From Candidatus Levyibacteriota bacterium (GTDB lineage: Bacteria; Patescibacteriota; Microgenomatia; Levybacterales; UBA12049), in NCBI GenBank assembly GCA_052034235.1, contig JBPOIT010000002.1, positions 5,939 to 69,938 of the forward strand: a stretch of 64,000 nt of DNA, in the 5' to 3' direction. The notes beneath the pieces were generated by a model. It was not told the DNA's origin. It saw only the letters and a list, made by a program, of their open reading frames with translations, and made no database searches. Numbering within the stretch: position 1 is the first letter of the stretch; each line of letters starts with the position of its first letter. A program made the translations under genes and the position numbers. Positions 7,305 through 54,452 of this stretch are shown one piece after another.

Positions 7305-7333
7305 TGTCAAGTGCTTTACATTTCTTTTATAGT
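7305..7333 (+). promoter_or_regulatory. sigma70-like promoter TTGTCA-17-TATAGT for the P-type ATPase gene (predicts leaderless ATG at 7341)
   Basis: -35 at 7305-7310, 17-nt spacer, -10 at 7328-7333; the ATG at 7341 lies 7 nt downstream. Confidence 0.5.
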
Positions 7334-7340
7334 GAATATA

Positions 7341-25533: not shown

Positions 25534-25534
25534 T

Positions 25535-39405: not shown

Positions 39406-40707
39406 TCATTGTTGTGCTGCTTCGTGTGTGAGCGTTACGAGTACCAGGTCAGGTACATAGAGGAATTCTTCTTTTTTGTAACCGTTTCGCAAAAGCGCAT
39501 CGTGGACGTTTTTGGAGAGGACAACTGGATAATAATCATCAATTTTATGTGAGAGGGTTTGTTGTTCAGTTTGATCCTCAAAAATATCGTAGCCTATGGT
39601 TAAGATCCCGAGTTTTGTTTTTGAAGGTTTGTAACCGAGTTCTTTAAGGCGTGTATAGAATCTTTCCTTATACTCAGTGATACCTTCTTTTGTTGCTCTA
39701 AAGACGATTCTACGGCCTTTAGCGATAGTTAAAATCTTTTTGAGCACAATATCAGATGGATCCAGCAGTGTCACTCCACTATATCGCAGAGCAATTGATC
39801 CCATGGTGATAACATCTTCACTCTTTGGGATAATTGCTTTTTCATCTTCTGAGACAACATAACTTTTATGGTATTTATCTCCAATAATAATAATGCGGTT
39901 TTGATTCCAGTTCAGTTCTTTTTCGATGACTCTGATATTTTGGCAGAGAATGTCGAGTTTATGAGGAGAAAGATCATATGCTTTTGCACCTGGTAAAAAG
40001 ATTTGGTCATCTTTAACAGGGAAGAACACATATTCACCCGCGTGTTCACCATCTGCTCTTATAAGCGTTTGTTTGAGGTCGTCATACAGTCCATCAGCTG
40101 CATAGGTATTCCAGAAAATGGTAACGAATGGTTTTGTTTCTGAGATTGTAACTGTTTCATCAGGTTTATGGTTGAGGACAAACTGTGTGCCGATAAAGTC
40201 GCCTTTGCCCACAAAAAGCAGAGAATGACCGGGTTTCATGATAAGGCGGAGCATGCCGCTTGTGACTTGTTCTTGAAGCATTTTCTTTGCAAGATAGACT
40301 TTATCAAGCCAGGTTCTTCTATCAATTGCATCAATAAGTTTTTTGATACCGAAAATGCCAAAAGAGTAGAGGACGATGTTTGGAATGTGGTAGAGGATAT
40401 TGGCTTTTCGAACGGGCTCTCCAATCATGTCCCATAAATAATCAATTCCAACAAGCATCGGAGGTGGGAAATTCGTCCAGGAAGGTAATTGATTGACAAA
40501 TGCTTTAAACTCGATTGGAAACGCAGTAAAGATGAACCCAAACAGTAATGACAGCGGCACAGTTATACGTTTCAGTACTTTTCGAAGTTTGGTATCCTGA
40601 TTTAATTTCTCAAATTGCAAAAGATAGGTGATATCTTCTGGCTTTATTGATGTACCAGATGTGACATTCTTTGCAATGGCTATGAGTCTGCGCTTTTGAT
40701 ACTGCAT
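39406..40707 (-). CDS. Hypothetical 433-aa protein with an N-terminal TM segment; no recognisable catalytic motif
   Basis: ORF divergent from the second histidine kinase; no Walker or other motifs seen by eye. Confidence 0.4.
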   Translation of the reverse strand: MQYQKRRLIAIAKNVTSGTSIKPEDITYLLQFEKLNQDTKLRKVLKRITVPLSLLFGFIFTAFPIEFKAFVNQLPSWTNFPPPMLVGIDYLWDMIGEPVRKANILYHIPNIVLYSFGIFGIKKLIDAIDRRTWLDKVYLAKKMLQEQVTSGMLRLIMKPGHSLLFVGKGDFIGTQFVLNHKPDETVTISETKPFVTIFWNTYAADGLYDDLKQTLIRADGEHAGEYVFFPVKDDQIFLPGAKAYDLSPHKLDILCQNIRVIEKELNWNQNRIIIIGDKYHKSYVVSEDEKAIIPKSEDVITMGSIALRYSGVTLLDPSDIVLKKILTIAKGRRIVFRATKEGITEYKERFYTRLKELGYKPSKTKLGILTIGYDIFEDQTEQQTLSHKIDDYYPVVLSKNVHDALLRNGYKKEEFLYVPDLVLVTLTHEAAQQ

Positions 40708-42262: not shown

Positions 42263-43003
42263 CTAACAATTTGGCCAAGCGCCTCGGCCGCCGTTTGAGA
42301 TTTTGTAAGCGGCAGTTCGGATAGCTTCCTCAGCATTTTTCCTTAGGTCAGGATTAGTATCAAGGCCCATGGCACTGCGTGTGCTTATCCATGTCGCTGC
42401 TGCAAATTGATACATGCCTGCATATAAGCCAGTATCGGCATTGGTATTAAAACCAGCTTCGCATTTTGCAATTCGTTTGAGATCTTCTTTATCGACTTTA
42501 TATTCATCAGCATATTTACTAAATAATGAATCAAGATCCGTAGGTGCTGCAACAGCAGTCTGGGGGATTGGCGTTGCTGTTGGCAATGGTTCTGTCGTCG
42601 GAATAGCGCTTGGTGTTATTGTTACTTGAATTATTTTAGTAGGTTCAGGTGTTGTCGTTGGCGTTTGTGGTTCAGCGGTAACGGTAGGAACAGGCTCGTC
42701 AGTTGATTTAAGTGTAAAAAGAACTGGTTTTTGTTTTACATCCTCTGGCTGCTGTGTGATTTGTTTTACGTAGGCTAAGGTCGGAGTAGGTTGAGGTGTA
42801 ACAGCCGGTATCTGCGTAGGTTTTGCTATTAGCTCAGATGTCTGTGCGTTCGCAACTGTATGGAACAGGGTCGTTGAGACACTGAATGAAAGAAAAGAGA
42901 GAAGCACGTAGCTAGCCAGTTTCCTCTGCATTATTAAATCGTAACATGCACATTCTTTACTGTGTGTAAGAGATACGCTATAAGATAAAAAACAAAAGGG
43001 CAT
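42263..43003 (-). CDS. Secreted transglycosylase-like (Rpf/PF06737-like) domain protein with Pro/Thr-rich linker
   Basis: Signal peptide; C-terminal CEAGFNTNADTGLYAGMYQFAAATWIS...AWPNC resembles the Rpf-type lysozyme-like domain (CESGGNW...GLYQF..TW). Confidence 0.55.
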   Translation of the reverse strand: MPFCFLSYSVSLTHSKECACYDLIMQRKLASYVLLSFLSFSVSTTLFHTVANAQTSELIAKPTQIPAVTPQPTPTLAYVKQITQQPEDVKQKPVLFTLKSTDEPVPTVTAEPQTPTTTPEPTKIIQVTITPSAIPTTEPLPTATPIPQTAVAAPTDLDSLFSKYADEYKVDKEDLKRIAKCEAGFNTNADTGLYAGMYQFAAATWISTRSAMGLDTNPDLRKNAEEAIRTAAYKISNGGRGAWPNC

Positions 43004-43206: not shown

Positions 43207-43782
43207 TTATTTTTCTTCAAAAGTGATATCGGAAGGGAGTATGAATTTTGTTTCGTCTGGATTCCAAGGTTTACAATTAAAAATCATATTCTGACGAATT
43301 TGTTCTGCCTGTTGTTTCTCTTGAGGAGTGAGAGATTTATTTGCTTCACTGAATTTCATACCTACTTTTTGTCCGCCAAGGATCATCCAGCTGTAGGCGG
43401 TATTATTCATATAAATAGCGTTACCTTCAGCTTCCATACCGCCAATTGTTGCCGTTATGGTACTTCTTCCTTTATGTGCAGTTGTCCAGAGTGTGCCTTT
43501 GTTAAATGGGTTTTCTCCTTCAACTGGCATCCTCCAATCACATTCCAAATTCTGGCCACGACCAACGATATCAGGGATAGTTGTATTCAATTCTCGATTG
43601 GTGAGTGTTTCTGAAGGAATAACATTTCCCACAGAGTTTTTTGTCAAAGAAGCAATAGGTGAGGTATTTGGATTTGATTGAGTTGCAAAAAATAAACCAA
43701 AGCCAATGATTGCAGCTGCCCCCAAAACGACAAGTAAAGCGATTGTTGAAAATCCCAAAGCTGATAATTTATGGCCATTCAT
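43207..43782 (-). CDS. Hypothetical membrane-anchored exported protein
   Basis: N-terminal TM helix; 191 aa; no family recognised. Confidence 0.35.
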   Translation of the reverse strand: MNGHKLSALGFSTIALLVVLGAAAIIGFGLFFATQSNPNTSPIASLTKNSVGNVIPSETLTNRELNTTIPDIVGRGQNLECDWRMPVEGENPFNKGTLWTTAHKGRSTITATIGGMEAEGNAIYMNNTAYSWMILGGQKVGMKFSEANKSLTPQEKQQAEQIRQNMIFNCKPWNPDETKFILPSDITFEEK

Positions 43783-43803: not shown

Positions 43804-44727
43804 TTATCTAATACGCTGCAAATTCTCAACAATTAAAGCGAAACGCTCCTGCGCAATTTCCAAAAGACTTTTTTTCCGGCAAACCTCCTGCAGTTCTATC
43901 AAATCATCATTTGCTGGTATAACAGCATTGTTTGTTCGTGTATACATAATTGCCTTGGTATCAGGTACGTGATCTATGCCTAATGCATGGCCGAATTCAT
44001 GGGCGAGTGTGTGAACGAGTTCATCTGGGGTGTTATAAAAATAAATGATAATTCGTCGACCATCTTTATCCTGAATGTAAATTCCTTCTTCAGGTTTTGA
44101 TTTCAAGGCTTCGTTATAAGTATCGACTGTTTGGCTTAATGCTTGTACCTCAGTATTGTATTCGTCAGTTGATTGACCGAGCTCAGCGGCCGTTGCATGA
44201 AGTTGCCTTGATTCCTCCTGAAGCACTTTTTGCCGTTCGATCAGTCCTTGATAGACATCAGTAGGTGCGCCTCCTTTTGTGTTCCAGTTATCAATTTCCT
44301 GGTTAAGTGCTGCAGCTTTTTGCTTGAAGGCTGCAACACGTTGTTCATACGCAGCAATCCTTGGTTCAAGCGCTTTATTCTGTTCATCGAGTTTGGTATC
44401 AAGCTGACTTATTTGGGAATTAAGTGATTGCCGTTCGTCATATTCTAAACTAACGGTGAGTGGACCTTCTGGGTCATAAGCAAAAAGTTCTTTTCCTGAA
44501 GCCTCGCTCCAAATCGCTCCGGCTTCCTGAATATACTTTTTGAATTCTTCTTCTGACAGATTAAATCGTTTATCAATTTTACCGATTTTATAGGCAAGGG
44601 GAGTGTCACATGTGGAGTAGTACGTGACTTGTTTTATTTGCTCTGCGATGACGGTTCGGTTTTGGAAGCCAAGGCCCAAGAGAACAATCACTAGAATGAC
44701 CCAAAATAACTTTCTCATAGCCATCAC
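43804..44727 (-). CDS. Secreted zinc metalloprotease, metzincin (matrixin-like) with coiled-coil region
   Basis: Canonical HEFGHALGIDH (HExxHxxGxxH) plus Met-turn AIMY; signal/TM at the N-terminus; Q/E-rich coiled-coil in the middle. Confidence 0.65.
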   Translation of the reverse strand: MMAMRKLFWVILVIVLLGLGFQNRTVIAEQIKQVTYYSTCDTPLAYKIGKIDKRFNLSEEEFKKYIQEAGAIWSEASGKELFAYDPEGPLTVSLEYDERQSLNSQISQLDTKLDEQNKALEPRIAAYEQRVAAFKQKAAALNQEIDNWNTKGGAPTDVYQGLIERQKVLQEESRQLHATAAELGQSTDEYNTEVQALSQTVDTYNEALKSKPEEGIYIQDKDGRRIIIYFYNTPDELVHTLAHEFGHALGIDHVPDTKAIMYTRTNNAVIPANDDLIELQEVCRKKSLLEIAQERFALIVENLQRIR

Positions 44728-44816: not shown

Positions 44817-46223
44817 TTAGTACGAAGCATAATTGAATCCAGAGGTATTACTAATTCTGACACTTGCATAGTTATTGCCCGTGCGAATCGATACCTTACC
44901 GTTGTGTTCCTCATGATTCTGAGAATGATAGTTTTTATATTTCTCGTTGAAATAGTTGCAGTCATCCTTTTTATCATAATCATGGTTTACCTTTTTTACG
45001 TACGTGACATATTTTTTATCATGGTTGTACTTATCGTCATGATTGTAAGATGTTACTTTGTAATCTTTGTTGTAATCATCTTTATGACTTTTGTAGTACT
45101 CATATGCCTCCCAGCAGCCATAATTACCTTCATATCCTTCATGTTTGAATAGGAATGTTAAGTAATAGTGACAGTTTTGTAGGTATTCATATTTGCCATA
45201 ATCATTCTTTTCATATTTCACGTATTTGTAGTCGTACTCTTTGTAATCCTTCTTGTTTGATTCATGGCCTTTTTTATCCCAGTCATCGTGTTTGAAGGAG
45301 TACGTATGATCATCTTTTTTCTCAGAATTGTATTCATGATGATTGTCTTCATCATGTTTATTCTTATCATCATGATCATCGTCTTTTTTACTGTCTACAT
45401 ACGTATGATCCTCGGAAGCTTTATGCTCATCGACCTTTTTATCGTCCTCATGTTTACCATAGTTTTTATTTTCATACTCATGGTTATCCTTTTTGACTTC
45501 GACATACTTTTGGTCGTCATGGTTTTTCCAGGATTTCTCGTCATCATTTTCATGATTGTCTTTGTAGGACTCGTCTTTGTTGTATGAATCTTTGTTCCAA
45601 TCATTATCTTTGTTTTCTTCAGACTTGAAAACTTCGTGCTTTTCCTCATACTTCTTATCGTCCTTGTCAGACCAGTTTTTTTTGTCAGTATCCCAGTCTT
45701 TCTCATCATGCTTATATGATGTGTTCTCATCTGCATGGTTGTATCCAGTATTTGCTTGTACGTCTACATTATTCTCAATCTTGGTGTCATTCTCCTGCGT
45801 GACTTCTTTCTTATCGTTATTTGAGAAATGTATCTCGTTATCTGAATGTGCACCGTTTTCGCTTTCTTTTATTTTCCAATCACTCTTCTCATGATCGTTA
45901 TTCACATACGCAGCGTTTACTCCGGCCGTATTCTCGATAGAAACGTGAGAGCGAGCATCACCAGTGTGTATTGAAACATCTCCACCGGTATTATCATTGG
46001 CTGAATTATTGCCCGTATTGCTATGTGTTGAGACATTATTGGAAATGGATGTATCGTTAGATTGATGAACAGATGTATCATGTTGTTCACTCACATGAAC
46101 TTTGTTATCTGAACGTGAACCATTTCCTGCAATAGTGATTGAATCAGCTGAAGCCGGGAAAAATGCTGCTGATCCCAAGAATGCTGCTGAAGAAATAAAA
46201 TAAGCAAGTTTTGTTTTTGTCAT
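44817..46223 (-). CDS. Secreted low-complexity His/Asp/Lys/Tyr/Asn-rich protein (468 aa)
   Basis: Strong SD AAGGAGGTG; signal peptide MTKTKLAYFISSAAFLGSAAFFPASA; long KDD/HDD/YNHD/KYE-type repeats. Opposite-strand ORFs are codon-bias artefacts. Confidence 0.5.
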   Translation of the reverse strand: MTKTKLAYFISSAAFLGSAAFFPASADSITIAGNGSRSDNKVHVSEQHDTSVHQSNDTSISNNVSTHSNTGNNSANDNTGGDVSIHTGDARSHVSIENTAGVNAAYVNNDHEKSDWKIKESENGAHSDNEIHFSNNDKKEVTQENDTKIENNVDVQANTGYNHADENTSYKHDEKDWDTDKKNWSDKDDKKYEEKHEVFKSEENKDNDWNKDSYNKDESYKDNHENDDEKSWKNHDDQKYVEVKKDNHEYENKNYGKHEDDKKVDEHKASEDHTYVDSKKDDDHDDKNKHDEDNHHEYNSEKKDDHTYSFKHDDWDKKGHESNKKDYKEYDYKYVKYEKNDYGKYEYLQNCHYYLTFLFKHEGYEGNYGCWEAYEYYKSHKDDYNKDYKVTSYNHDDKYNHDKKYVTYVKKVNHDYDKKDDCNYFNEKYKNYHSQNHEEHNGKVSIRTGNNYASVRISNTSGFNYASY

Positions 46224-46428
46224 TTACTTTTCACCTCCTTTCCGACGTGCCGTTATATACAAAAGCGGAGGTTCATCACTAGTAAATGAAATCCACACGT
46301 AGCGTAGGGCAGGTCTTATGTGATTAGAGTTAGACTAACCAGTTTATGTAAATCTAGAATAGATGTTTGTTAATAAACAGGTAAGAAAGGCTGATGAGGT
46401 TAGAGTTTTACGCCTGTTGAAGTAGAGG

Positions 46429-47493
46429 TTATTTTATAATCCGGGCGATTTTTTTTGTTTGTTCGATAATATAATCTATTTCTTCATCTTTCAAATCAGG
46501 GTAGAGTGGGAGACTTGCACAATGTGCTCCGATAAATTCGGTAACAGGAAGTGTTACTTTGTTGTATTGTTTATAACCCTTCATTAAATGAAGCGGAAGA
46601 TAATGGATACTGCATTGAATTCCTGCCTCTTTCATTTGAACCAGGAATTCATCGCGGTTTTCAACGAGAAGAGGATACATATGATTTCCTTTGATTTGTA
46701 GACCAAATGCTTCGTTATATTTTGTGACGATTTCGTCACGTCTTGCGTTCAAACCTTCAACTTTTTTAAGCTGCTCTCGGCCAATTGCAGCTTCGACATC
46801 TGTCATATCAAAGTTCCAGCCTGGCTCTTCAACTTCATAATAAAAACTGGAAGCACTTACGCCTCCTGTCCCTTGATAACGGCTCAATGTGTCTTTTGCG
46901 ATTCCGCCGTGACATGCCATTCTATACCAAGCTGCTTTTTCATCGTCATCAGTAATAATCATACCTCCGCGGACAGTAGTCATATTTTTCACTGCGTAAA
47001 AAGAAAAACAGATGGTAATACCTTTATAGTCGTTTTTTTCAATGCGATGAGCAGAGTCGAAAAGTACTGGAACAGGGAAGTTCTCAAACCCTTCAGCATA
47101 CCTTGCTGAATAATGAACAGGTATAACGAGCTTGGTACGAGGTGTTATTTTTCTCTTTACGTCTTCAGGATCTAAACACCACGTATCTTTTTTAACATCT
47201 GCAAAAACAGGTGTTGCACCTGCCTGAATAACAATACTTGCAGTAGCACTCCAGGTAAGAGAGGGGACGATTACTTCATCTTCAGGTTGAAGTTTCATCT
47301 GCTTTACAACAAGATAAAGCGCCATGGTGCAGCCGTTAGTTGCAATTGCATGTTTCGCACCGGTATAAGCAGCAACTTCTTCTTCAAAAGCTTGTGTTTC
47401 TTTGCCTCTTATGAGCCAGCCGCTATCAAGAACGCGCTTAACAGCTTGCAATTCTTTTTCATCAATTGACGGTTTTGTAAGATTAATAGTCAT
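46429..47493 (-). CDS. DegT/DnrJ/EryC1/StrS-family PLP-dependent sugar aminotransferase
   Basis: N-terminal KPSIDEKELQAVKRVLDSGWL...G; family-typical length and conserved Lys region. Confidence 0.8.
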   Translation of the reverse strand: MTINLTKPSIDEKELQAVKRVLDSGWLIRGKETQAFEEEVAAYTGAKHAIATNGCTMALYLVVKQMKLQPEDEVIVPSLTWSATASIVIQAGATPVFADVKKDTWCLDPEDVKRKITPRTKLVIPVHYSARYAEGFENFPVPVLFDSAHRIEKNDYKGITICFSFYAVKNMTTVRGGMIITDDDEKAAWYRMACHGGIAKDTLSRYQGTGGVSASSFYYEVEEPGWNFDMTDVEAAIGREQLKKVEGLNARRDEIVTKYNEAFGLQIKGNHMYPLLVENRDEFLVQMKEAGIQCSIHYLPLHLMKGYKQYNKVTLPVTEFIGAHCASLPLYPDLKDEEIDYIIEQTKKIARIIK

Positions 47494-47495
47494 AG

Positions 47496-48533
47496 TTAGA
47501 AGTTAAAAAGATTAATAGTTTTCATTGACTGTAATGCATTACGTGACTTTGTAAAGAGAGTAGTTCGCTTCTCGCCATTATTTGTGTACTTCATAAGATA
47601 CTTTACGCGATAATACACATCTTCATCAAGACTTTTAATACTTTTGTTTTCAAATGCCTTATAGATTTCATGAACAGCATCTTTTACGTCATATGTTGGT
47701 TTGAAGCCGAAATCCTTTTTAATTCTGTCAAAATTTGCTTTGTAGGATCTGCCATCGATACTTTCTTCGTTAATAACGAGTTCCACATGTGGCAATTCTT
47801 TTTTAATAAGTTTTCCAAGGTCAGAAATTCGATAATTCTGTTCATTTGAACCGACGTTATATATTCGGTGTTTTGGCTTTTCAACATGAAGTATCATACC
47901 AATTGCACGTGAGACATCTTTGACATGTACGATTGGACGCCACTGTGAACCACCGTTAACGGTAATTTTATTTTTAAAATAGGCATTTCCGGTCATGGTA
48001 TTAACGACGAGATCAAATCTCGGTTTTGGTGAGTGTCCGTAAACTGTTGCAAAACGGAGAACTATCCCGTTCACCTGTGGATTAAGATAGGCTTTTTCTG
48101 AAAGCATTTTGGTTCGCGCATAGAGTGTGACTGGTCCGAGTGGACTTTCTTCGTTAAACACACCGTTTTCTGAAAATCCGTATACGGAACAGGATGATGC
48201 ATAGATAACACGTTTACCTGTTGCTTGGCACAATTCAGCAATTAAATGGTTAGCTTTGTAATTGACATTCCATGTAAGCTCAGGAAGCAAATCAGATGCC
48301 GGGTCATTTGAAATAGCCGCTAAATTTACAATTGCGTCAGCCTTTTCAATAGCAGGCAGCAGGTCATTAATATCACGAATATCTCCAACGATATATTCTC
48401 TGTTAGGAAAACCTTTATCGTTTCGTTCATAAAGAAAATTATCAAACACGATAACGTCATCGCCAATTGATTCAAGATAATCACATAATACTGAGCCAAT
48501 GTAACCGGCTCCGCCGAGGACGAGTACTTTCAT
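47496..48533 (-). CDS. NAD-dependent nucleotide-sugar epimerase/dehydratase (SDR extended family)
   Basis: Rossmann GGAGYIGS at the N-terminus; YxxxK catalytic pair (Y147 and K151, within ...LYARTKMLSEKAYL...). Confidence 0.8.
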   Translation of the reverse strand: MKVLVLGGAGYIGSVLCDYLESIGDDVIVFDNFLYERNDKGFPNREYIVGDIRDINDLLPAIEKADAIVNLAAISNDPASDLLPELTWNVNYKANHLIAELCQATGKRVIYASSCSVYGFSENGVFNEESPLGPVTLYARTKMLSEKAYLNPQVNGIVLRFATVYGHSPKPRFDLVVNTMTGNAYFKNKITVNGGSQWRPIVHVKDVSRAIGMILHVEKPKHRIYNVGSNEQNYRISDLGKLIKKELPHVELVINEESIDGRSYKANFDRIKKDFGFKPTYDVKDAVHEIYKAFENKSIKSLDEDVYYRVKYLMKYTNNGEKRTTLFTKSRNALQSMKTINLFNF

Positions 48534-48534
48534 A

Positions 48535-49689
48535 TTATTTGCTGAGTGCCAGCCCTCCTTTTTGAGATTTTGCAGCTTGATCCATACTGACTACTTCATT
48601 GCAGTATGATTCGTATTGCTTGGCAATATTGTCCCAACCATATAATTTGGCAAATGGTCGTGCGTTTTTCTTGAGAGCCGCACGTTTGTTCTTATTCGTT
48701 GTCATTGTGAGAAGGGCATTAGCAAGAGATTTTGCATTTCCAGGCTGAGCCTTGATAGAAATCGTTGTTGGCACCCATGCCAAACCGTCAACATCCATAC
48801 AGACGATAGGTTTGCCCATACCTGCAAATTCGAGTGGCACGAGTGGGAAGTCTTCAAAACGTGAAGGATAAATGCCATACATACAGTTGGCGATTAATGT
48901 TTCCTTTTTTTTACCATCAACGCGTCCAATAAACTCAACAAACGATGAGACACCTTGTTCTTTGATCATCTTTTTAAGGGTTTCTTCTTCTTCCTTGGGG
49001 CCATTTCCTGCGAGGATAATTTTGACAGGGAAGTTCTTTGGAAGCATTGCGCATGCTTCTACGAGTGTGTCAAGGCTTTTTTGTCTGATATCAATTCTTC
49101 CCAAAAAGAAAGCATAAGGTTTTTCAGTTCCTTTGATAGTGAACCATTTTTCAGTCACACCGTTAGGAATAATTCTTGTATGAATTTTAGGATTTAGTCT
49201 TTCCATTTTCTTTTTATTCAAAGGAGAGTAGGCGAGGAAATATTTATACTTCTTTGCACCAAATGCTTCAACCCAATGAAAAGGCAATTTATACTTTCTG
49301 GTAAATTCTTTTGCCTCAAACATTGTCGGCATACCGATGACAGGAATTTTGGTAAAGACAGGTGAGAATAAAGTTGAAATCGGTGCGGTAAAACATTCAA
49401 TCATGACATCACATGAAAATTTACTAACAGTAAAGGGGAGTGCAGCAATGTAGACGAAGTTATTTAGTTTAATGTTAGAACTGCCAAGACCTATATGTTT
49501 ATATTCTATGCCATCTTTAGCATAGTCTTTATAACCAGGATAGCGGGAGCAAATGATTGTGACTTTGTGTCCAAGCGTTACAAGCCTCTGTGCTACTTCG
49601 AAGGTAGCACGAGCCTGTCCGCCTGAAAGCAGGTGGTTTTTGAGGTCATCGAAATCTAAGAATGCTATGTGTAATTTTTTAGTACGCAT
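48535..49689 (-). CDS. Glycosyltransferase family 4 (GT-B)
   Basis: C-terminal E-x7-E-like motif region (FEDFPLVPLEFAGMGKPIV); 384 aa. Confidence 0.7.
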   Translation of the reverse strand: MRTKKLHIAFLDFDDLKNHLLSGGQARATFEVAQRLVTLGHKVTIICSRYPGYKDYAKDGIEYKHIGLGSSNIKLNNFVYIAALPFTVSKFSCDVMIECFTAPISTLFSPVFTKIPVIGMPTMFEAKEFTRKYKLPFHWVEAFGAKKYKYFLAYSPLNKKKMERLNPKIHTRIIPNGVTEKWFTIKGTEKPYAFFLGRIDIRQKSLDTLVEACAMLPKNFPVKIILAGNGPKEEEETLKKMIKEQGVSSFVEFIGRVDGKKKETLIANCMYGIYPSRFEDFPLVPLEFAGMGKPIVCMDVDGLAWVPTTISIKAQPGNAKSLANALLTMTTNKNKRAALKKNARPFAKLYGWDNIAKQYESYCNEVVSMDQAAKSQKGGLALSK

Positions 49690-49773: not shown

Positions 49774-49802
49774 TTGTATTTGTTATCGCATACTAGTATA
49801 AT
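49774..49802 (+). promoter_or_regulatory. sigma70 promoter TTGTAT-17-TATAAT for the TrpR-like gene (ATG 49810, leaderless-like)
   Basis: -35 at 49774-49779, -10 at 49797-49802, ATG 8 nt downstream. Confidence 0.5.
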
Positions 49803-49809
49803 AGTATGC

Positions 49810-50094
49810 ATGAGCAGCACACCGAGAAATGAATTATTAGAATCATTGCTGGCAGTTAAAACAAAGCAGGAAATGGAAGCATTTCTTTCAGGCATTTTGA
49901 CGCCGCAAGAACTTGCTGATTTGCCAAAAAGGCTTGAAATTTTTAAGATGTTAAAAGTAGGAATTCCCCAGCATGAAATTGCGAAGAAACTAGGAGTCGG
50001 AGTGGCGACAGTAACTCGAGGCTCACTTGAACTCCAGCGGGGAAATATACAAAAAACAGGATGGTGGCGCAGTTTATCAACCTTGAGAGGCTGA
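49810..50094 (+). CDS. TrpR-like protein, YerC/YecD family
   Basis: Small helical protein with ...LTPQELADLPKRLEIFKMLKVGIPQHEIAKKLGVGVATVTRGS... HTH, typical of the YerC/YecD TrpR-like family; directly upstream of trpE. Confidence 0.55.
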   Translation: MSSTPRNELLESLLAVKTKQEMEAFLSGILTPQELADLPKRLEIFKMLKVGIPQHEIAKKLGVGVATVTRGSLELQRGNIQKTGWWRSLSTLRG

Positions 50095-50124
50095 TCTTTG
50101 CGTTTTTTTGGGAAACTCTTGGAT

Positions 50125-50153
50125 GAACCTCTCAGGTGAGAGGTTCTTTCTTT
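50125..50153 (+). terminator. Terminator/attenuator-like hairpin GAACCTCTC-AGGT-GAGAGGTTC + TTTCTTTGTT immediately before the trpE ATG
   Basis: Perfect 9-bp stem at 50125-50133 and 50138-50146, with a U-rich tail ending 4 nt before the ATG at 50157. Confidence 0.55.
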
Positions 50154-50156
50154 GTT

Positions 50157-51506
50157 ATGAAACAATTACAAAAAATTTGTATTACACAAAAACCAACATA
50201 CCGTAAATTGGCAGAAGATGTCGATTTCTTTGAACTGTTTGCAAAAGTAGAACGGGAGTTTGATACCTGTTTTCTGCTTGAATCATTAGGAGAAGAAGGG
50301 AAGTTTTCAAGATATTCAACAATTGGGTTTGCCCCTGAACATCTTATTTCAGCACAAAAAGAAACGTTATTTGTGGATGATGAAACGTTTGAAACAACAA
50401 ATCCATATAAAGCACTAAGAGAGATGATGCCTGAAGAAACGATTGCTCGTGAATACGCGGGAGGACTTGTCGGGTATGTAAGTTATGATGCTATTAACTA
50501 TTTTGAACCGACAATTAAAGCAAAAGTGCATGACGATTTTGATCAGTTTATGTTTGGCGCGTATACGGATGGCGTAGTTTTTGACAAATTAACCAATGAG
50601 TTATTTTATTTTTACTACACGGAGGATCGAAGCCAAATTTTAAAACAAATCATGAAAAAATCACTTCCTACTCAATCTGTGCAGGTTACATTTGCAAATG
50701 ACAGTCTTACGAAAGGGGAACATAAACAGATTGTTGAACAGGTTAAAGAACAAATTCGTGCAGGAAATATCTTTCAATGCGAGGTTGGATTTAAATCGAA
50801 GTACAAAGTAAAAGGAGACTTGTTGCAAATCTATAAAAAGCTGAGAAAAGAGAACCCCTCTCCGTTTATGTATTATCTGAAATTTGGCAAAAAGAAAATC
50901 ATTGGTGCGAGTCCTGAACTGCTCTTTTCGCTTCGAGATGGTGAAATGACCACCAAACCGCTTGCCGGAACAATTAAACGCGGCAAATCTGAGCAGGAAG
51001 ACCAACAGCTTGCAAGAATGTTGCTTAACGATCCTAAAGAAATTGCTGAGCACAGAATGCTTGTTGATTTACACCGCAATGATATCGGCAAAGTTGCGCA
51101 GTTTGGTACGGTGAAAGTGCGTGAACTGATGTCTGTTAAAAAGTTCAGTTATGTGCAGCATATTTCAAGCGAGATTGTCGGACTCATGAGTCAGAAAGAG
51201 GATATGTTCTCAGCGTTTGCTTCCAATTTTCCAGCAGGAACACTAACAGGTGCTCCCAAGATTGAAGCGATGAAAATTATTGATGCGAACGAAAAAGAGG
51301 CGCGCGGACCATATGGCGGGGCAGTCGGGCATTTCGGTTTTAATGGAGATTGTACTTTTGCCATAGCTATCAGATCACTTTTTGCCTCAGGTGAAAAGGC
51401 TTACACCCAAACATGCGGAGGGATTGTGTTTGATTCTGATCCTGACAAAGAGTATCAGGAGATTATCAATAAAAAGAAAGCGATGAAAGGAGTTTTGGAA
51501 GCATGA
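50157..51506 (+). CDS. trpE: Anthranilate synthase component I
   Basis: Chorismate-binding domain; GAVGHFGFNGDCTFAIAIRS and GGIVFDSDPDKEYQE C-terminal signature. The track start 50136 is a GTG inside the hairpin. Confidence 0.9.
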   Translation: MKQLQKICITQKPTYRKLAEDVDFFELFAKVEREFDTCFLLESLGEEGKFSRYSTIGFAPEHLISAQKETLFVDDETFETTNPYKALREMMPEETIAREYAGGLVGYVSYDAINYFEPTIKAKVHDDFDQFMFGAYTDGVVFDKLTNELFYFYYTEDRSQILKQIMKKSLPTQSVQVTFANDSLTKGEHKQIVEQVKEQIRAGNIFQCEVGFKSKYKVKGDLLQIYKKLRKENPSPFMYYLKFGKKKIIGASPELLFSLRDGEMTTKPLAGTIKRGKSEQEDQQLARMLLNDPKEIAEHRMLVDLHRNDIGKVAQFGTVKVRELMSVKKFSYVQHISSEIVGLMSQKEDMFSAFASNFPAGTLTGAPKIEAMKIIDANEKEARGPYGGAVGHFGFNGDCTFAIAIRSLFASGEKAYTQTCGGIVFDSDPDKEYQEIINKKKAMKGVLEA

Positions 51507-52108
51507 AGGTCTTACTTATCGATAATTATGATTCATTTACCTTTAATCTCTACCAGGTCGTAGGTGAAATTCTGATGAAAACACAAAGTAAGTTTACAAT
51601 CGATGTGTTTCGAAATGATGAGATGACACTTTCAGAAATAGCTCAGAATAAATATGACAGAATTATTATTTCTCCAGGCCCGGGAGATCCAGCTGATAAG
51701 CACTATTTTGGTGTTTGCGCAGAGGTCATTACGCAGCTTGGTAAAAGGACTCCTGTCTTTGGGGTGTGCCTCGGGATGCAGGGAATTGCGCATTACTTCG
51801 GTGGAAAAGTGGTTCGGGCTAACGTTCCTATGCACGGTAAGACAAGTGAAATAATGCATGACGAAAAAGGGGTTTTTGCTGGATTGCCGCAAGGTCTTGA
51901 AGTGATGCGTTACCATTCACTCATTGCTGATAAAAAATCACTGCCAAAAGAACTCGTTATAACTGCAACCGCAGGTGAAAACGGTGACATTATGGGAATT
52001 AGGCATAGACATTTCCCAATCGAAGGCATACAATTCCATCCGGAATCATTTGCAACAGAAGCGGGAAAACGAATGCTTGAAAACTTTATACAGCAAACTT
52101 ATGAATAA
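51503..52108 (+). CDS. trpG: Anthranilate synthase component II (class I glutamine amidotransferase)
   Basis: VLLIDNYDSFTFNL, catalytic GVCLGMQ, HPE triad; ATGA overlap with trpE. Confidence 0.85.
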   Translation: MKVLLIDNYDSFTFNLYQVVGEILMKTQSKFTIDVFRNDEMTLSEIAQNKYDRIIISPGPGDPADKHYFGVCAEVITQLGKRTPVFGVCLGMQGIAHYFGGKVVRANVPMHGKTSEIMHDEKGVFAGLPQGLEVMRYHSLIADKKSLPKELVITATAGENGDIMGIRHRHFPIEGIQFHPESFATEAGKRMLENFIQQTYE

Positions 52109-53114
52109 GATATTAAACAAACTACTTGAAAAGCAAGATTTGTCAGCTCGTGAGATACGTCTCTTTCTTGACGGTATGGTAACGGGGGAAGTCCCGCCAG
52201 CACAGATCGCTGCATTTCTGGCGGGATTGCGGACAAAAGGGGAAACTGTTGAGGAACTTGTGGCACTGATTGAAGGTATGCGAACGTATATGGTTGTCGT
52301 GCCTGGTGGCGAAACGGCAATTGATACATGTGGCACTGGAGGAGATGGTTCTGGAACATTTAATATCTCAACGACAGTTGCTTTTGTTGTTGCTGGTGCA
52401 GGCGTTACGGTTATGAAACACGGCAACAGAGCAGCCAGTAGTAAATGCGGCAGTGCAGACGTTTTGGAAGCACTTGGAGTACATATCAATATAACTTCGA
52501 TGCAAGCTAAAAAAGTGGCTGAAAAAACGGGAATGGTATTTCTCTTTGCACCCATGTATCATCCAGCGATGAAAAATATAGCACCTGTTCGAAAAGAACT
52601 TGGAGTGAGAACAGTTTTTAATTATCTCGGACCGTTTCTCAATCCCGCAGGGGTAAAACGACAATTGATTGGTGTGCCTTCACCTGTTCTTGCCAAAAAA
52701 CTTGCAACGGTTGCGGTAAAACTTGGATATGAACATCTGTTGATTGTTTCAAATAAAGACGGACTTGATGAGCTTGGCCTCTCTTCAGGATCACACATCT
52801 ATGAAGTGAAAGGGAGAACTGTCAAGTCAAAAATGTTTGATCCTTTGAAATTAGGTTTTAAGACTGCGTCAGTAAAAGCACTGAGTGGAGGAACTGCAGC
52901 GCAAAACGCACAACTTATAAAAGAAGTTCTGAGTGGTAAAGAAGGTCCTCGTCGTGATATTGTGGTAATAAATGCAGCACATGCGCTGTATGTTTCAGGT
53001 AAAGTAAAAACGGTCAAAGAAGGCATAAAACTTGCAGAAATCTCTCTTGATTCAGGATCAGCAAAAGAAGTTTTAGAAAATGTTATAAAGGAGACAAACA
53101 TATATGCACAATAA
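52101..53114 (+). CDS. trpD: Anthranilate phosphoribosyltransferase
   Basis: GTGGDGSGTFNIST glycine-rich motif; start taken at the internal ATG 52101 (overlaps the trpG stop) rather than the track start 51975. Confidence 0.85.
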   Translation: MNKILNKLLEKQDLSAREIRLFLDGMVTGEVPPAQIAAFLAGLRTKGETVEELVALIEGMRTYMVVVPGGETAIDTCGTGGDGSGTFNISTTVAFVVAGAGVTVMKHGNRAASSKCGSADVLEALGVHINITSMQAKKVAEKTGMVFLFAPMYHPAMKNIAPVRKELGVRTVFNYLGPFLNPAGVKRQLIGVPSPVLAKKLATVAVKLGYEHLLIVSNKDGLDELGLSSGSHIYEVKGRTVKSKMFDPLKLGFKTASVKALSGGTAAQNAQLIKEVLSGKEGPRRDIVVINAAHALYVSGKVKTVKEGIKLAEISLDSGSAKEVLENVIKETNIYAQ

Positions 53115-53838
53115 ACTCAAACAAATTATTGATCAAACAAAACGAGATGTCGCTTCCCGAAAAACAAAAAACACGGTTGTCAGTTTGTTTCGAAACTATG
53201 ACGGTGTGGCGATTATCGCTGAGATAAAACTTGCGTCTCCTACAAATCCTCATTTGGGTTCAGTAAATGATGTAACGCCAAACGCTCGTGACTACCAAAA
53301 GGGTGGAGCAGCGATGATTTCTCTCGTTACAGAGAAACATTTCTTTAAAGGTGATCCGAATTTTATTCGTCAAATTAAAAAAGCTGGAGTCAGCTTGCCT
53401 ATTTTGCAAAAAGATTTTGTCATTGATGCATTGCAGCTTGTTGAGTCAAAAGAAGCCGGTGCCGATGCAGTTTTACTGATTGCTAAAATGTTGAGAAGAA
53501 AGCAGCTTAAGCAGTTTGTTTCACTCGCCAAAGCGCTTGGTGTTGAACCTATTGTTGAAATAAACGATGAAGAAGATCTGGACAATGCAATTGCTGCAAA
53601 TCCTTCTCTTATCGCCGTGAATGCGAGAGATTTGGAAACCTTTACTGTTGATATTGATCGTGCAAGCAGTCTCATGGAAAGAATCCCAGATGAATTTGTG
53701 AAGCTTGGCTTTTCAGGAATACAAACTCGTAGTGACGTTGAAAAGTACAAAAAAGCTGGTGCAAAAGGGGTTTTGGTTGGGACGAGCCTGATGCAAGCTC
53801 CTGATAAAATACAACTTTTGGAGGAATTACATGTATGA
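53104..53838 (+). CDS. trpC: Indole-3-glycerol phosphate synthase
   Basis: IIAEIKLASP motif; TIM-barrel length. Confidence 0.8.
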   Translation: MHNKLKQIIDQTKRDVASRKTKNTVVSLFRNYDGVAIIAEIKLASPTNPHLGSVNDVTPNARDYQKGGAAMISLVTEKHFFKGDPNFIRQIKKAGVSLPILQKDFVIDALQLVESKEAGADAVLLIAKMLRRKQLKQFVSLAKALGVEPIVEINDEEDLDNAIAANPSLIAVNARDLETFTVDIDRASSLMERIPDEFVKLGFSGIQTRSDVEKYKKAGAKGVLVGTSLMQAPDKIQLLEELHV

Positions 53839-54452
53839 CCGTAGCAGTCAAAATCTGCGGGATTAGGTCAGTTGAAAGCGCATTGGCTGCAATAGATGCA
53901 GGTGCTGACTTCATTGGGCTTAATTTTGTTCCAACCTCAAAGCGAAAGATCAATGAAGGTACAGCACGAGAGATTGTTGAGGCAGTTGAAGGGCAAGCAA
54001 TGACGGTTGGTGTTTTTCAAAATGCTGACAGTGTGTATGTAAATACACTCGCAAGAAGTTTGGATTTAGATTATGTGCAATTGCATGGAACTGAGGATGC
54101 CGCGTATTGCAGCCAAATGCAAACTAAAGTCATAAAAGCACTTTCGCTAAAGCAAAATGTTGATGTCCATGCATTACTGCGTGAGATGAAAGAGCTAGAT
54201 GTGTCATTGTTTTTGCTAGATCGAGCAGTGCAGGGAAGCGGTTCTGCCATACCTGTTCAAGTTGCGGAGCGCCTGGCGCAGGAATTTGAAGTCTTTCTTG
54301 CTGGAGGATTACTTCCAGATACTGTTGCTGGCGTGGTAAAAAAAATTAGACCATATGCGGTTGATGTTGCGGGAGGAATTGAAACTGATGGGGAGGAAGA
54401 TATTATCAAGATAAAACAATTTATCATGAATGCAAAAGGAGTAATTTTATGA
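53835..54452 (+). CDS. trpF: Phosphoribosylanthranilate isomerase
   Basis: VKICGI N-terminus; 205 aa; ATGA overlap with trpC. Confidence 0.75.

What the first reader, a model, noticed from the sequence alone, without database searches (positions are those of the whole stretch)
44817..46223. Highly expressed (strong SD) secreted His/Asp/Lys/Tyr-rich low-complexity protein
The 468-aa protein has a signal peptide. An N-terminal Asn/Ser/Thr-rich region is followed by ~300 aa of HDD, KDD, YNHD and KYE-type repeats. It ends with a Gly/Asn-rich motif (TGNNYASVRISNTSGFNYASY) reminiscent of C-terminal sorting/anchor tails. The composition suggests high-capacity divalent-metal binding or biomineral/matrix interaction. 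It is adjacent to zinc metalloprotease genes.
Basis: seen in the sequence. Interest (0 to 1): 0.6.

Follow-up and report, generated by a model that had tools for sequence, protein, structure and literature searches.

The report
Surface repeat protein with sticky loop
This is a real, exported protein of an uncultured ultra-small (Patescibacteria/CPR) bacterium: it belongs to a large, unnamed family of all-beta surface repeat proteins, and its last repeat is split open by a 272-residue disordered loop rich in Lys, Asp, Glu, Tyr and His, whose function (adhesion or cross-linking, possibly cation binding) is still untested.

Summary
The 468-aa ORF (44817-46223, minus strand) is real. It has a Sec-type signal peptide, the longest Shine-Dalgarno site among 48 window genes, its own terminator, and identical copies in two independent assemblies. 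It contains no DNA tandem repeats.

The N/S/T-rich N-terminus is not filler. It consists of about 90-aa repeat units (GNGxxSDN...NTGxNxA..NTGGDVxIxTGDA) of a large Patescibacteria family: 3198 cluster representatives, with no Pfam, NCBIfam or PDB match. Typical members sit in three-paralogue clusters next to a sortase gene.

The C-terminal "sorting-like" tail is the closing hairpin of the second unit. That unit is split by a 272-aa low-complexity insert (K, D, Y, E, N and H make up 79%) that AlphaFold2 leaves unmodelled (pLDDT below 50). At least twelve relatives share this split architecture. Their inserts keep composition (aromatic 17-26%, K and D, net charge near zero, DYDHDKK-like motifs) but not sequence.

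The resemblance to Bacillus CotC is compositional only. Classical His clusters (HH, HxH) are not enriched, and the neighbouring M10 protease is not conserved next to relatives.

Best reading: a surface protein displaying a multivalent adhesive or cross-linking loop. Metal binding is possible but untested.

The parts
46231..46240 (-). Shine-Dalgarno site AAGGAGGTGA (GGAGG core at 46234-46238), upstream of the ATG at 46223
   Evidence: Read from the sequence. It is the longest anti-SD complement among the 48 ORFs examined in the window.
46146..46223 (-). Signal peptide, aa 1-26 (MTKTKLAYFISSAAFLGSAAFFPASA | DS). Probable SPase I cleavage after ASA.
   Evidence: Read from the sequence. The same n/h/c region and an A-x-A followed by D/T are found in all aligned relatives. 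AlphaFold2 models aa 2-18 as a helix.
45900..46142 (-). Repeat unit 1, aa 28-108 (GNGSRSDN ... NTGNNSANDNTGGDVSIHTGDARSHVSIENTAGVN)
   Evidence: Homology to 108 family proteins, best E=6e-63. pLDDT is about 80 and the region is all-beta. The single-unit alignment is A4.
45720..45875 (-). Repeat unit 2, first half, aa 117-168 (ENGAHSDN ... ANTGYNHADENT)
   Evidence: Unit 1 aligned to the spliced unit 2 scores 181 (BLOSUM62), z=20 against shuffles. pLDDT is 75-81.
44904..45719 (-). Low-complexity insert, aa 169-440. Composition: K 20%, D 17%, Y 13%, E 11%, N 10%, H 9%. Net charge about -0.09 per residue. Three Cys at 351, 370 and 422. Degenerate aromatic-x-H-D-D/E-K motifs.
   Evidence: Composition. 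pLDDT is below 50 throughout. The insert alone has no homologue at E<=0.01 among 5.8 billion proteins. There is no DNA tandem repeat. The C-x19-20-C spacing is shared with P0055, P0071 and P0080.
44820..44903 (-). Repeat unit 2, second half, aa 441-468 (NGKVSIRTGNNYASVRISNTSGFNYASY). This closing beta-hairpin completes the split unit.
   Evidence: It aligns to unit 1 residues 81-105; 0 of 2000 shuffles reach the score. It aligns to the C-terminal hairpin of all 10 split-type relatives. pLDDT is 71-79 although it follows 270 unmodelled residues.
44817..44819 (-). Stop codon TAA
44766..44796 (-). Intrinsic terminator: an 11-bp stem (AAAACCCUCCG / CGGAGGGUUUU), a 7-nt loop, then a U run. It starts 20 nt after the stop codon.
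   Evidence: The RNA fold of the 72-nt stretch containing it has MFE -20.5 kcal/mol, and the hairpin is present in both the MFE and the centroid structure. The simple pattern scan did not list it.

Best explanation
The gene encodes a Sec-exported cell-envelope or surface protein of a Patescibacteria (CPR) bacterium.

Family. It belongs to a large, so far unnamed family built from about 90-residue all-beta repeat units. The unit signature is GNGxxSDN ... QxNxAxIxNNV ... NTGxNxAxxNTGGDVxIxTGDAxxxVxxxNxxNxN.

Architecture. This member has two units. The second unit is split at its NTG loop by a 272-residue loop, and the last 28 residues return to complete the fold. The insert is therefore held as a closed loop at one pole of the beta module. 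It is highly charged with a net charge near zero, rich in aromatic residues, and probably disordered.

Shown here: export signals, family membership, the split-repeat architecture, conservation of that architecture in at least 12 relatives, and conservation of insert composition without conservation of sequence.

Inferred: the beta module is the scaffold or attachment part, because its relatives are sortase-linked surface proteins. The loop is inferred to be a multivalent "sticky" element. Its Tyr/Trp, Lys and Asp/His side chains would mediate adhesion to cell-wall or host polysaccharide, or self-association and cross-linking of a surface matrix. Cations bound by its H-D/E pairs could act as cross-linkers. 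In this reading it is a functional analogue, not a homologue, of Tyr/Lys/Asp-rich coat proteins such as Bacillus CotC/CotU.
For: Family.
- 108 homologues, best E=6e-63, all built of the same unit. Source names include Gottesman-, Woese-, Levy- and Saccharibacteria.
- A profile search finds 3198 cluster representatives at E<=1e-3 and 1159 at E<=1e-30.

Surface location.
- Twelve of the 108 homologues end in LPxTG plus a hydrophobic segment plus a basic tail.
- 25 of 36 genome loci carry a sortase gene within 6 kb. The typical gene order is a ~415-aa paralogue, a ~730-aa paralogue with a C-terminal membrane anchor, a ~380-aa LPxTG paralogue, then sortase.
- The split-type relative P0088 lies directly downstream of a sortase gene.

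Split repeat.
- Unit 1 against the spliced unit 2 gives z=20. The tail alone is reached by 0 of 2000 shuffles.
- Alignment A1 of 11 split-type proteins shows the conserved C-terminal hairpin.
- In the AlphaFold2 model, pLDDT is about 80 for aa 28-165, 71-79 for aa 441-468 and below 50 for aa 170-439.
- P0368 has a 30-aa K/Y-rich insert at the same site. L046 and L073 are further split-type members.
- In a neighbour-joining tree of unit 1, split members are mostly each other's nearest neighbours.

Loop properties.
- Across relatives the inserts have aromatic content 17-26%, K 8-24%, D 8-26% and net charge near zero.
- DYDH, DHDK, YDHD and KDYD are the commonest 4-mers across inserts.
- P0021 uses Trp (14%) in place of Tyr. 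Aromaticity, not Tyr as such, is therefore the conserved property.
- Typical family members carry Cys-bracketed aromatic mini-inserts in the same last unit (also P0049 and P0052). This suggests the last unit is the variable interaction end of the protein.

Expression signals. The strongest SD in the window and a dedicated terminator.
Against: No function was tested here, and no family member has been characterised. No relevant paper was found.

The fold has no significant match: Foldseek against PDB and BFVD gives TM<=0.12. The idea of a rod with the loop at one pole therefore rests only on the secondary-structure strings of the two models.

This protein has no LPxTG motif, no membrane anchor and no sortase gene within the 64-kb window. 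How, or whether, it stays on the cell is unknown.

Low pLDDT may reflect the lack of alignable homologues rather than true disorder. Three conserved Cys and a short hydrophobic patch (YLQNCHYYLTFLF) hint at some local structure.

A purely passive spacer role, or simple tolerance of low-complexity expansion, cannot be excluded.
Confidence: 0.55

Rival explanations
1. One reading: the insert is a high-capacity divalent-metal binding, buffering or storage module, or a biomineral nucleator. His and Asp/Glu side chains would chelate Zn, Ni, Cu or Ca.
For: - The insert is 9% His, 17% Asp and 11% Glu.
- 16 of its 24 His are followed by D or E. HDD and NHD are enriched, at z=4.6 and z=5.7.
- The D-H-D motif recurs in the closest split-type relatives.
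- Tyr, His and Asp together are classical Fe(III) ligands. This is general knowledge and was not tested here.
- The window also encodes a heavy-metal P-type ATPase with an HMA domain and a DsbD/cupredoxin-like protein. These lie about 19 kb away.
Against: - Lys is as abundant as Asp (20%), so the net charge is about zero. That is atypical for cation-storage proteins.
- HH, HxH and HxxH clusters, typical of His-rich metal binders, are at or below chance.
- His varies from 2 to 13% among split-type relatives, whereas aromatic content is constant.
- No metal-related gene is adjacent, and no neighbour is conserved.
Confidence: 0.2
2. The protein is a true homologue or orthologue of Bacillus spore coat protein CotC/CotU and is cross-linked through dityrosine into a coat. 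JGI names three relatives "spore coat protein C".
For: - JGI gives that name to P0055, P0071 and P0080.
- The top three residues are shared (K, D, Y). DYDHDKK-like strings also occur in CotC; the CotC sequence was recalled from memory, and only its 66-codon length ending in Tyr is consistent with PMC2841587.
- CotC and CotU are tyrosine-rich outer-coat proteins that assemble into high-mass forms (PMC7944565).
Against: - Pairwise BLASTP gives only E=0.003 to 0.02, with many alternative registers. That is the signature of shared composition, not homology.
- The insert has no Pfam or NCBIfam hit.
- The insert alone finds nothing at E<=0.01 among 5.8 billion proteins.
- One relative replaces Tyr by Trp, which is incompatible with a general dityrosine mechanism.
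- Patescibacteria are not known to sporulate (general knowledge).
Confidence: 0.05
3. The protein is a substrate or functional partner of the adjacent M10 zinc metalloprotease. For example, the protease could process the loop or be regulated by it.
For: - The M10-like gene (43804-44727, HEFGHALGIDH) lies 90 nt downstream on the same strand.
- It is followed by two more genes for predicted exported or membrane proteins: a 191-aa protein with an N-terminal hydrophobic segment, and a transglycosylase-like protein.
Against: - A strong terminator separates the two genes.
- tblastn with the M10 protein finds no relative in any of the 40 other loci carrying family members that were fetched by then. 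The gene downstream of P0002 is unrelated.
- The contexts of the split-type relatives P0088 and P0094 contain no M10 gene.
Confidence: 0.08
4. The low-complexity stretch is an artefact: a mis-assembly, a frameshifted pseudogene, or a non-coding AT-rich stretch spuriously read as an ORF.
For: - Low-complexity regions are prone to assembly and annotation errors.
- AT skew in this 2-kb bin is extreme, at -0.27.
Against: - The gene is identical in contigs from two independent assemblies, with 0 mismatches over 1407 nt.
- There are no DNA tandem repeats.
- The family-specific hairpin is in frame after 272 residues with no stop codon.
- The same architecture recurs in 10 or more relatives with different insert lengths.
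Confidence: 0.02

Closest known systems
Unnamed Patescibacteria/Microgenomates repeat-protein family (GNGxxSDN...NTGGDVxIxTGDA units), e.g. hypothetical protein A3A79_00360 of Candidatus Gottesmanbacteria (P0033)
   Same: Signal peptide. The same ~90-aa all-beta unit, with 40-50% identity over the units. The last unit tolerates insertions at its loops.
   Different: - Typical members have four units, Cys-Cys linkers between units, and a C-terminal FDLxDLLxxLG-like tail. They sit in a three-paralogue cluster with sortase.
- This protein has two units, no Cys linkers and no tail, and it stands alone.
- It carries a 272-aa insert that is absent from about 90% of the family: only 2 of the 146 newly returned top representatives have anything similar.
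Bacillus subtilis outer spore-coat proteins CotC/CotU
   Same: Extreme Tyr/Lys/Asp composition with DYD(H)DKK-like strings. An extracellular structural setting. CotC and CotU multimerise into high-mass forms (PMC7944565).
   Different: - There is no detectable homology, only shared composition.
- CotC is a free 66-aa protein made in the mother cell without a signal peptide (general knowledge).
- Here the biased segment is a loop inside a folded repeat of an exported protein in a lineage not known to sporulate.
LPxTG sortase-anchored surface proteins and adhesins of monoderm bacteria (MSCRAMM-type: stalk plus low-complexity region)
   Same: A signal peptide and a repetitive beta-rich ectodomain combined with a low-complexity region. 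Paralogues in other genomes carry LPxTG signals and sit next to sortase genes.
   Different: - This protein has no LPxTG motif, hydrophobic segment or basic tail.
- The repeat fold matches no Ig-like or CnaB pilin structure.
- The low-complexity segment is an internal closed loop, not a wall-spanning linker.
Functional amyloid and beta-solenoid repeat proteins (curli CsgA, Pseudomonas FapC, Ag43)
   Same: Asn/Gln/Gly-rich imperfect repeats predicted as all-beta. These proteins top the insignificant Foldseek lists.
   Different: E-values are 0.14 to 5, TM is at most 0.15 and rmsd is above 28 A, so there is no real superposition. No member matches a curli (Curlin_rpt) or Fap family in Pfam.
Histidine-rich metal-binding proteins (Hpn-like proteins, His-rich loops of metal transporters)
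   Same: Elevated His with neighbouring acidic residues.
   Different: His is only 9% and is dispersed. HH and HxH clusters are not enriched. Lys and Tyr dominate the composition.

Membership tests
Patescibacteria GNGxxSDN/NTGGDVxIxTGDA repeat-protein family (unnamed) | N-terminal Sec signal peptide followed directly by the first unit | tested here: met
   MTKTK + hydrophobic core + PASA|DS, then ITIAGNGSRSDN. This aligns with all relatives.
Patescibacteria GNGxxSDN/NTGGDVxIxTGDA repeat-protein family (unnamed) | At least two ~90-aa units with the invariant N, G, S, Q and T positions | tested here: met
   phmmer E=6e-63 to family members. Invariant columns N34 G35 S38 D39 N40 Q54 N56 ... G442 I446 T448 G449 in A1. 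The internal unit-to-unit alignment has z=20.
Patescibacteria GNGxxSDN/NTGGDVxIxTGDA repeat-protein family (unnamed) | Genomic cluster of three paralogues plus sortase | tested here: not met
   This is the only family member in the 64-kb window. No sortase-like sequence is present. The cluster is typical of the family (25 of 36 loci) but is not universal.
Split-last-unit subfamily (P0055, P0071, P0080, P0094, P0095, P0088, P0077, P0081, P0105, P0021, L046) | The last unit is interrupted between NTGxNxA and (N)TGGxVxIxTGDA by an aromatic and charged low-complexity insert, and the protein ends right after the closing hairpin | tested here: met
   Alignment A1, composition table, nearest-neighbour analysis.
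CotC/CotU spore coat proteins | Sequence homology to CotC | tested here: not met
   BLASTP E=0.003 with multiple registers. No Pfam or NCBIfam family. The insert-only search is empty. The CotC sequence was recalled from memory.
CotC/CotU spore coat proteins | Small free protein of an endospore former, deposited from the mother cell | tested here: not met
   The segment is internal to a 468-aa protein that carries a signal peptide. The best named AtpD relatives of the window are Patescibacteria.
LPxTG sortase substrates | C-terminal LPxTG motif, hydrophobic segment and basic tail | tested here: not met
   The C-terminus ...SVRISNTSGFNYASY has none of the three features.
His-rich metal-binding proteins | Clustered His (HH, HxH, HxxH) or very high His content | tested here: not met
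   HH 1 (2.0 expected), HxH 0 (2.1 expected), HxxH 1 (1.8 expected). His is 9%.
His-rich metal-binding proteins | Measured metal binding | not testable with these tools
   This needs biochemistry.
Curli/Fap functional amyloids | Match to the curlin or Fap repeat families, or to their solved folds | tested here: not met
   No Pfam hit for the protein or for 44 single units. Foldseek E>=0.3 and TM<=0.15.
Tandem-repeat (array) proteins | Head-to-tail DNA or peptide repeats of a defined period | tested here: not met
   Tandem Repeats Finder reports only a 2-copy 15-nt match. There is no periodic pattern of alternating aromatic residues.

The most novel reading that the evidence does not exclude
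The Patescibacteria repeat family is a new all-beta fold that forms the main sortase-linked surface structure of Microgenomates-type cells. The split-unit subfamily has convergently evolved a CotC-like or mussel-glue-like Tyr/Trp-Lys-Asp-His "cement" loop, displayed as a closed loop at the tip of the module. These ultra-small episymbionts would use it to glue themselves to host cell walls or mineral surfaces, possibly with metal-mediated (for example Fe(III) or Zn) cross-linking.
Probability: 0.2. Interest if true: 0.7.

Novelty: new variant of a known kind. Interest (0 to 1): 0.42.

Why it matters
Patescibacteria are abundant, mostly uncultured bacteria, and all cultivated members live attached to other microbes. 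How they attach is largely unknown.

This finding points to a very large surface-protein family: 3198 clusters at 50% identity, with no match in Pfam, NCBIfam or the PDB. It defines a subfamily in which one repeat has been opened to display a long aromatic and charged low-complexity loop.

If the loop proves to be an adhesive, cross-linking or cation-binding element, it would be a simple, testable module for host or surface attachment. It would also be an example of convergent evolution with spore-coat and bioadhesive proteins.

The repeat unit is also a good target for structure determination, because it currently has no structural match.

Tried and rejected
Searches that found nothing.
- Pfam and NCBIfam scans of the protein and relatives gave nothing meaningful. 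The MSCRAMM hits of P0015 come from Asp/Ser-rich composition and score far below cut-off.
- PDB sequence searches with the four-unit profile and the single-unit profile gave no hit, even at E<=10.
- Foldseek of both models against PDB and BFVD returned only insignificant beta-solenoid look-alikes.
- The insert-only homology search was empty.
- The metagenome scan with the single protein found no close relative.
- Cluster look-up and contig look-up gave no organism names. Taxonomy was therefore inferred from named AtpD relatives at about 80% identity.
- Literature searches for a description of this family, or of His-rich secreted CPR proteins, found nothing relevant.

- The search for related loci with the 107-sequence alignment failed because no stretch was conserved enough.

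Ideas considered and rejected.
- C-terminal sorting signal: rejected.
- Tandem-repeat array or mis-assembly: rejected.
- Operon with the M10 protease: rejected.
- Amphipathic alternating-Tyr beta pattern: not above chance.
- A structured 5' leader or an anti-SD hairpin: fold z=-0.6.
Full report
**1. Observation**

The ORF 44817..46223 on the minus strand is 468 codons long, with an ATG start and a TAA stop.

Start and export signals:
- It begins MTKTK-LAYFISSAAFLGSAAFF-PASA|DS. This is a standard Sec signal peptide layout with an A-x-A cleavage site and no lipobox Cys. This is read from the sequence; no predictor was run.
- Upstream lies AAGGAGGTGA (46231-46240). This is the longest complement to the anti-SD among the 48 ORFs examined in the window.
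- Most of those ORFs have no SD at all. Nine have a TA[TC]AAT box ending 4-12 nt before the start codon, against 0.4 expected, which points to leaderless transcripts.

Transcript end:
- Twenty nucleotides after the stop there is an 11-bp GC-rich hairpin followed by a U run. The 72-nt stretch containing it folds at -20.5 kcal/mol.
- The gene is therefore probably its own transcription unit.

Composition of residues 169-440:

| Measure | Insert | 101 control windows from 20 other window proteins |
|---|---|---|
| K+D+Y+E+N+H share | 78.7% | mean 26%, max 38% |
| Shannon entropy | 3.39 bits | mean 4.01, min 3.78 |

- HDD, NHD, KDD and DKK are enriched over shuffles, with z between 3 and 5.7.
- There is no tandem DNA repeat. 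Tandem Repeats Finder finds only a 2-copy 15-nt match.
- The region is therefore compositionally biased, not an array.

Assembly check:
- Two contigs from independent SRA-run assemblies carry the gene with 0 mismatches over 1407 nt.
- One of them matches 14.8 kb of the window exactly.

**2. What the ends of the protein are**

A search of 5.8 billion proteins returned 108 homologues, the best at E=6e-63.
- Most are 400-430 aa long.
- None has a precomputed Pfam domain, apart from one LPxTG anchor.
- Where sources name them, they come from Candidatus Gottesmanbacteria, Woesebacteria, Levybacteria, Saccharibacteria or the "Patescibacteria group".

Reading these proteins shows a signal peptide followed by, typically, four copies of a ~90-aa unit. 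The unit consensus is xxIxGNGxxSxN...TxVxQxNxAxIxNNVxxxxNTGxNxAxxNTGGDVxIxTGDAxxxVxxxNxANxNxA (alignment A4).

The query's "Asn/Ser/Thr-rich N-terminal region" maps onto this unit as follows:
- Residues 28-108 are unit 1.
- Residues 117-168 are the first half of unit 2, ending at ...ANTGYNHADENT.
- The last 28 residues (NGKVSIRTGNNYASVRISNTSGFNYASY) are the missing second half of unit 2.

Evidence for the split:
- Unit 1 aligned against the spliced unit 2 scores 181 (BLOSUM62), z=20 against shuffles.
- The tail alone aligns to GDVSIHTGDARSHVSIENTAGVNAA of unit 1. No shuffle out of 2000 reaches that score.

The tail is therefore not a sorting signal. It is the closing hairpin of a repeat that has been split by a 272-residue insert.

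**3. The split architecture is a conserved subfamily**

Ten of the 108 homologues have the same design: P0055, P0071, P0080, P0094, P0095, P0088, P0077, P0081, P0105 and P0021.
- Each has one to three intact units followed by a last unit interrupted at the same loop.
- Insert lengths are 66-302 aa.
- Each protein ends immediately after GNTGGDVSIxTGDAxAxVxLxNxxxSN.

Further examples:
- P0368 has only a 30-aa K/Y-rich insert at the same site.
- L046 and L073, from metagenomes, are split-type as well.

In a neighbour-joining analysis of unit 1, the split members are mostly each other's nearest neighbours. This suggests one or a few origins.

What the inserts share and do not share:
- They are not alignable. 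The query insert alone finds nothing at E<=0.01.
- Their composition is conserved:

| Property | Range across split-type inserts |
|---|---|
| Aromatic (Y/W/F) | 17-26% |
| K | 8-24% |
| D | 8-26% |
| H | 2-13% |
| Net charge per residue | -0.17 to +0.06 |

- P0021 has 14% Trp and no Tyr. Aromaticity, rather than Tyr or His, is therefore the constant.
- The commonest shared 4-mers are DYDH, DHDK, YDHD, KDYD and HDKK.
- The query and its three closest split-type relatives share three Cys in the insert, with a C-x19-20-C spacing. This hints at a small disulfide-bounded element.

The architecture is a minority form. Only 2 of the 146 newly returned proteins among the 150 best cluster representatives have such a segment, and only 2 of 154 family ORFs in 80 metagenome loci are split-type.

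**4. Structure**

AlphaFold2 on the query, using the family alignment, gives these confidence values:

| Residues | pLDDT |
|---|---|
| 28-165 | about 80 |
| 441-468 | 71-79 |
| 170-439 | below 50 |

- Unit 1 has strands at 39-69, 83-86 and 90-106.
- The split unit 2 has the equivalent strands at 128-158, 444-447 and 451-467.
- This agrees with the tail completing unit 2.

A typical four-unit member (P0015) is modelled with pLDDT 73 and pTM 0.71.
- It is all-beta, with one ~31-33-residue strand and one ~19-residue strand per unit.
- It has a short C-terminal helix.

From these secondary-structure strings I infer an elongated beta module in which the NTG loops, including the insertion site, lie at one end. 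I could not inspect coordinates, so this is inference.

Searches for a known fold or family found nothing meaningful:
- Foldseek against PDB and BFVD gives nothing real: TM<=0.15 and rmsd>28 A. The top, insignificant hits are beta-solenoids such as Ag43, SRRP, FapC and CsgA.
- PDB sequence searches with four-unit and single-unit profiles give nothing, even at E<=10.
- Pfam and NCBIfam give nothing.

**5. Family size and genomic setting**

A profile search of 1.84 billion cluster representatives finds 3198 proteins at E<=1e-3 and 1159 at E<=1e-30.

In 36 genome loci, the named records are Microgenomates-group lineages: Davies-, Curtiss-, Gottesman-, Roizman- and Levybacteria. Many MAG records carry the title "uncultured Gammaproteobacteria"; I did not verify those titles.

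The typical arrangement in these loci is three paralogues in a row:
- a ~415-aa protein with a C-terminal FDLxDLLxxLG-like tail;
- a ~720-770-aa protein with a C-terminal membrane anchor;
- a ~370-390-aa protein with an LPxTG signal.

These are followed by a sortase gene. A sortase-like gene lies within 6 kb in 25 of the 36 loci.

The split-type P0088 lies directly downstream of a sortase gene and among cell-wall enzyme genes. The family is therefore a cell-surface family linked to sortase.

The query is different:
- It is the only family member in the 64-kb window.
- No sortase or LPxTG protein is present in the window.

Its neighbours are listed below.

| Neighbour | Coordinates | Position |
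|---|---|---|
| M10/matrixin-like protease (HEFGHALGIDH; roughly 90 residues more than the Pfam model between its N-terminal part and the HExxH region, overlapping weak coiled-coil-type hits) | 43804-44727 | downstream |
| 191-aa protein with an N-terminal hydrophobic segment | 43207-43782 | downstream |
| Transglycosylase-like protein | 42263-43003 | downstream |
| DegT aminotransferase | 46429-47493 | upstream |
| Epimerase | 47496-48533 | upstream |
| GT4 glycosyltransferase | 48535-49689 | upstream |

None of these neighbours is found next to family members in the 40 other loci fetched by then. The only exceptions are two weak epimerase matches.

**6. Organism**

- The window comes from a 152.7-kb NCBI contig.
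- Its ATP synthase beta subunit has its best named relatives, at about 80% identity, in Candidatus Saccharimonadales, Patescibacteria group and Levyibacteriota.
- Together with the phyletic range of the repeat family, this places the window in Patescibacteria. The class is uncertain.

**7. Comparison with known systems**

CotC/CotU:
- JGI calls three split-type relatives "spore coat protein C".
- Bacillus CotC and CotU are tyrosine-rich outer-coat proteins that assemble into high-mass forms (PMC7944565).
- The CotC sequence was recalled from memory. Its 66-codon length ending in Tyr agrees with PMC2841587.
- Against the query and P0071 it gives only E=0.003-0.02 in pairwise BLASTP, in many alternative registers.
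- This is compositional resemblance, not homology.

Metal binding:
- 16 of 24 His are followed by D or E, so H-D/E pairs are frequent.
- HH, HxH and HxxH are at or below chance.
- Lys balances the acidic residues.
- His content is the least conserved feature among relatives.
- Cation binding may contribute but is unlikely to be the defining property.

Sortase substrates, curli/Fap amyloids and tandem-repeat arrays all fail their defining tests (see the membership table).

**8. Most likely mechanism**

Shown:
- The protein is exported.
- It consists of a two-unit beta module of a surface-protein family.
- The second unit is closed by the C-terminal hairpin, so the 272-residue insert forms a closed loop.
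- The loop's aromatic and charged composition is maintained by selection, while its sequence and length drift.

Inferred:
- The loop is a multivalent interaction element. Cation-pi, pi-pi and electrostatic contacts, possibly bridged by metal ions, would stick the protein to wall or host polysaccharide or to itself, giving adhesion or matrix cross-linking.
- The variable, Cys-bracketed aromatic mini-inserts in the last unit of ordinary family members (P0049 and P0052) support the idea that this end of the module is the interaction end.

Expression. High expression is suggested by the unique SD and the dedicated terminator. Codon usage supports it only weakly.

**9. Verdict**

It is better explained as a split repeat with a disordered loop, in a member of a large uncharacterised Patescibacteria surface-protein family.
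- The sorting-tail reading is wrong.
- The protease link is not conserved.
- The metal-binding idea is possible but not favoured.

The finding is moderately interesting. The family and its fold are unannotated and the architecture is unusual. However, low-complexity segments in bacterial surface proteins are a known kind of feature, and no function has been demonstrated.

Noticed in passing
window-wide; e.g. starts at 13451(+), 19795-20451(-), 23263(+), 35200(+), 39406-40707(-), 43207-43782(-), 56479(+): Nine of 48 ORFs have a TA[TC]AAT box ending 4-12 nt before the start codon, against 0.4 expected. Most ORFs lack any Shine-Dalgarno sequence. This genome seems to use leaderless mRNAs widely, which makes the target's perfect SD stand out.
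   Followed up: partly
L007-L041 and L045 (genome loci), e.g. L029/L045 10001-14659: In Microgenomates genomes the repeat family occurs as a conserved cluster of three paralogues: ~415 aa with an FDLxDLLxxLG tail, ~730 aa with a C-terminal membrane anchor, and ~380 aa with LPxTG. A sortase gene follows; 25 of 36 loci have a sortase within 6 kb. This looks like an undescribed sortase-dependent surface assembly.
   Followed up: partly
L058, L097, L117; P0049, P0052 (last repeat unit): Ordinary four-unit family members carry a short aromatic-rich (often Trp-rich) mini-insert bracketed by two Cys, between QxN and NDV of the last unit (e.g. QENDWKCSSYGHDGFLSLFEGYGYGKSKCNDVD). This is a different site in the same unit from the large insert of the split-type proteins.
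   Followed up: no
window 44904-45719 (aa 351, 370, 422): Three Cys inside the low-complexity insert are shared with P0055, P0071, P0080 and L046. The first two are 19-20 residues apart and flank an aromatic-rich stretch. This may be a small disulfide-bonded element inside the otherwise unmodelled loop.
   Followed up: partly
window 43804-44727 (-): The adjacent M10/matrixin-like protease has the HEFGHALGIDH zinc site. Its match spans roughly 90 residues more than the Pfam model between the N-terminal part and the catalytic helix. The extra stretch overlaps weak coiled-coil-type hits at aa ~90-220.
   Followed up: no
window 46429-49689 (-): A tight three-gene set lies immediately upstream of the target on the same strand: GT4 glycosyltransferase, NAD-dependent epimerase/dehydratase, and DegT-type aminotransferase. 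It could make an amino sugar for wall polysaccharide or for glycosylating surface proteins. It is not conserved next to relatives.
   Followed up: partly
window 49774-56447 (+): A complete tryptophan operon (trpE, G, D, C, F, B, A) is preceded by a Trp-repressor-like gene. This is notable in a genome whose markers look like Patescibacteria, a group usually poor in amino-acid biosynthesis.
   Followed up: no
window 23263-26548 (+) and 7311-10034 (+): A heavy-metal P-type ATPase with an HMA domain is followed by a DsbD_2/cupredoxin-like protein. A second cation P-type ATPase is also present. These lie about 19 kb or more from the target, so they give no direct support for a metal role.
   Followed up: no
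L007, L008, L011, L012 and others (record titles): Many TPA_asm MAG records that carry this Patescibacteria-type gene cluster are titled "uncultured Gammaproteobacteria bacterium", and one is titled "Nanoarchaeia archaeon". These titles look like placeholders or mis-assignments. This was not verified.
   Followed up: no
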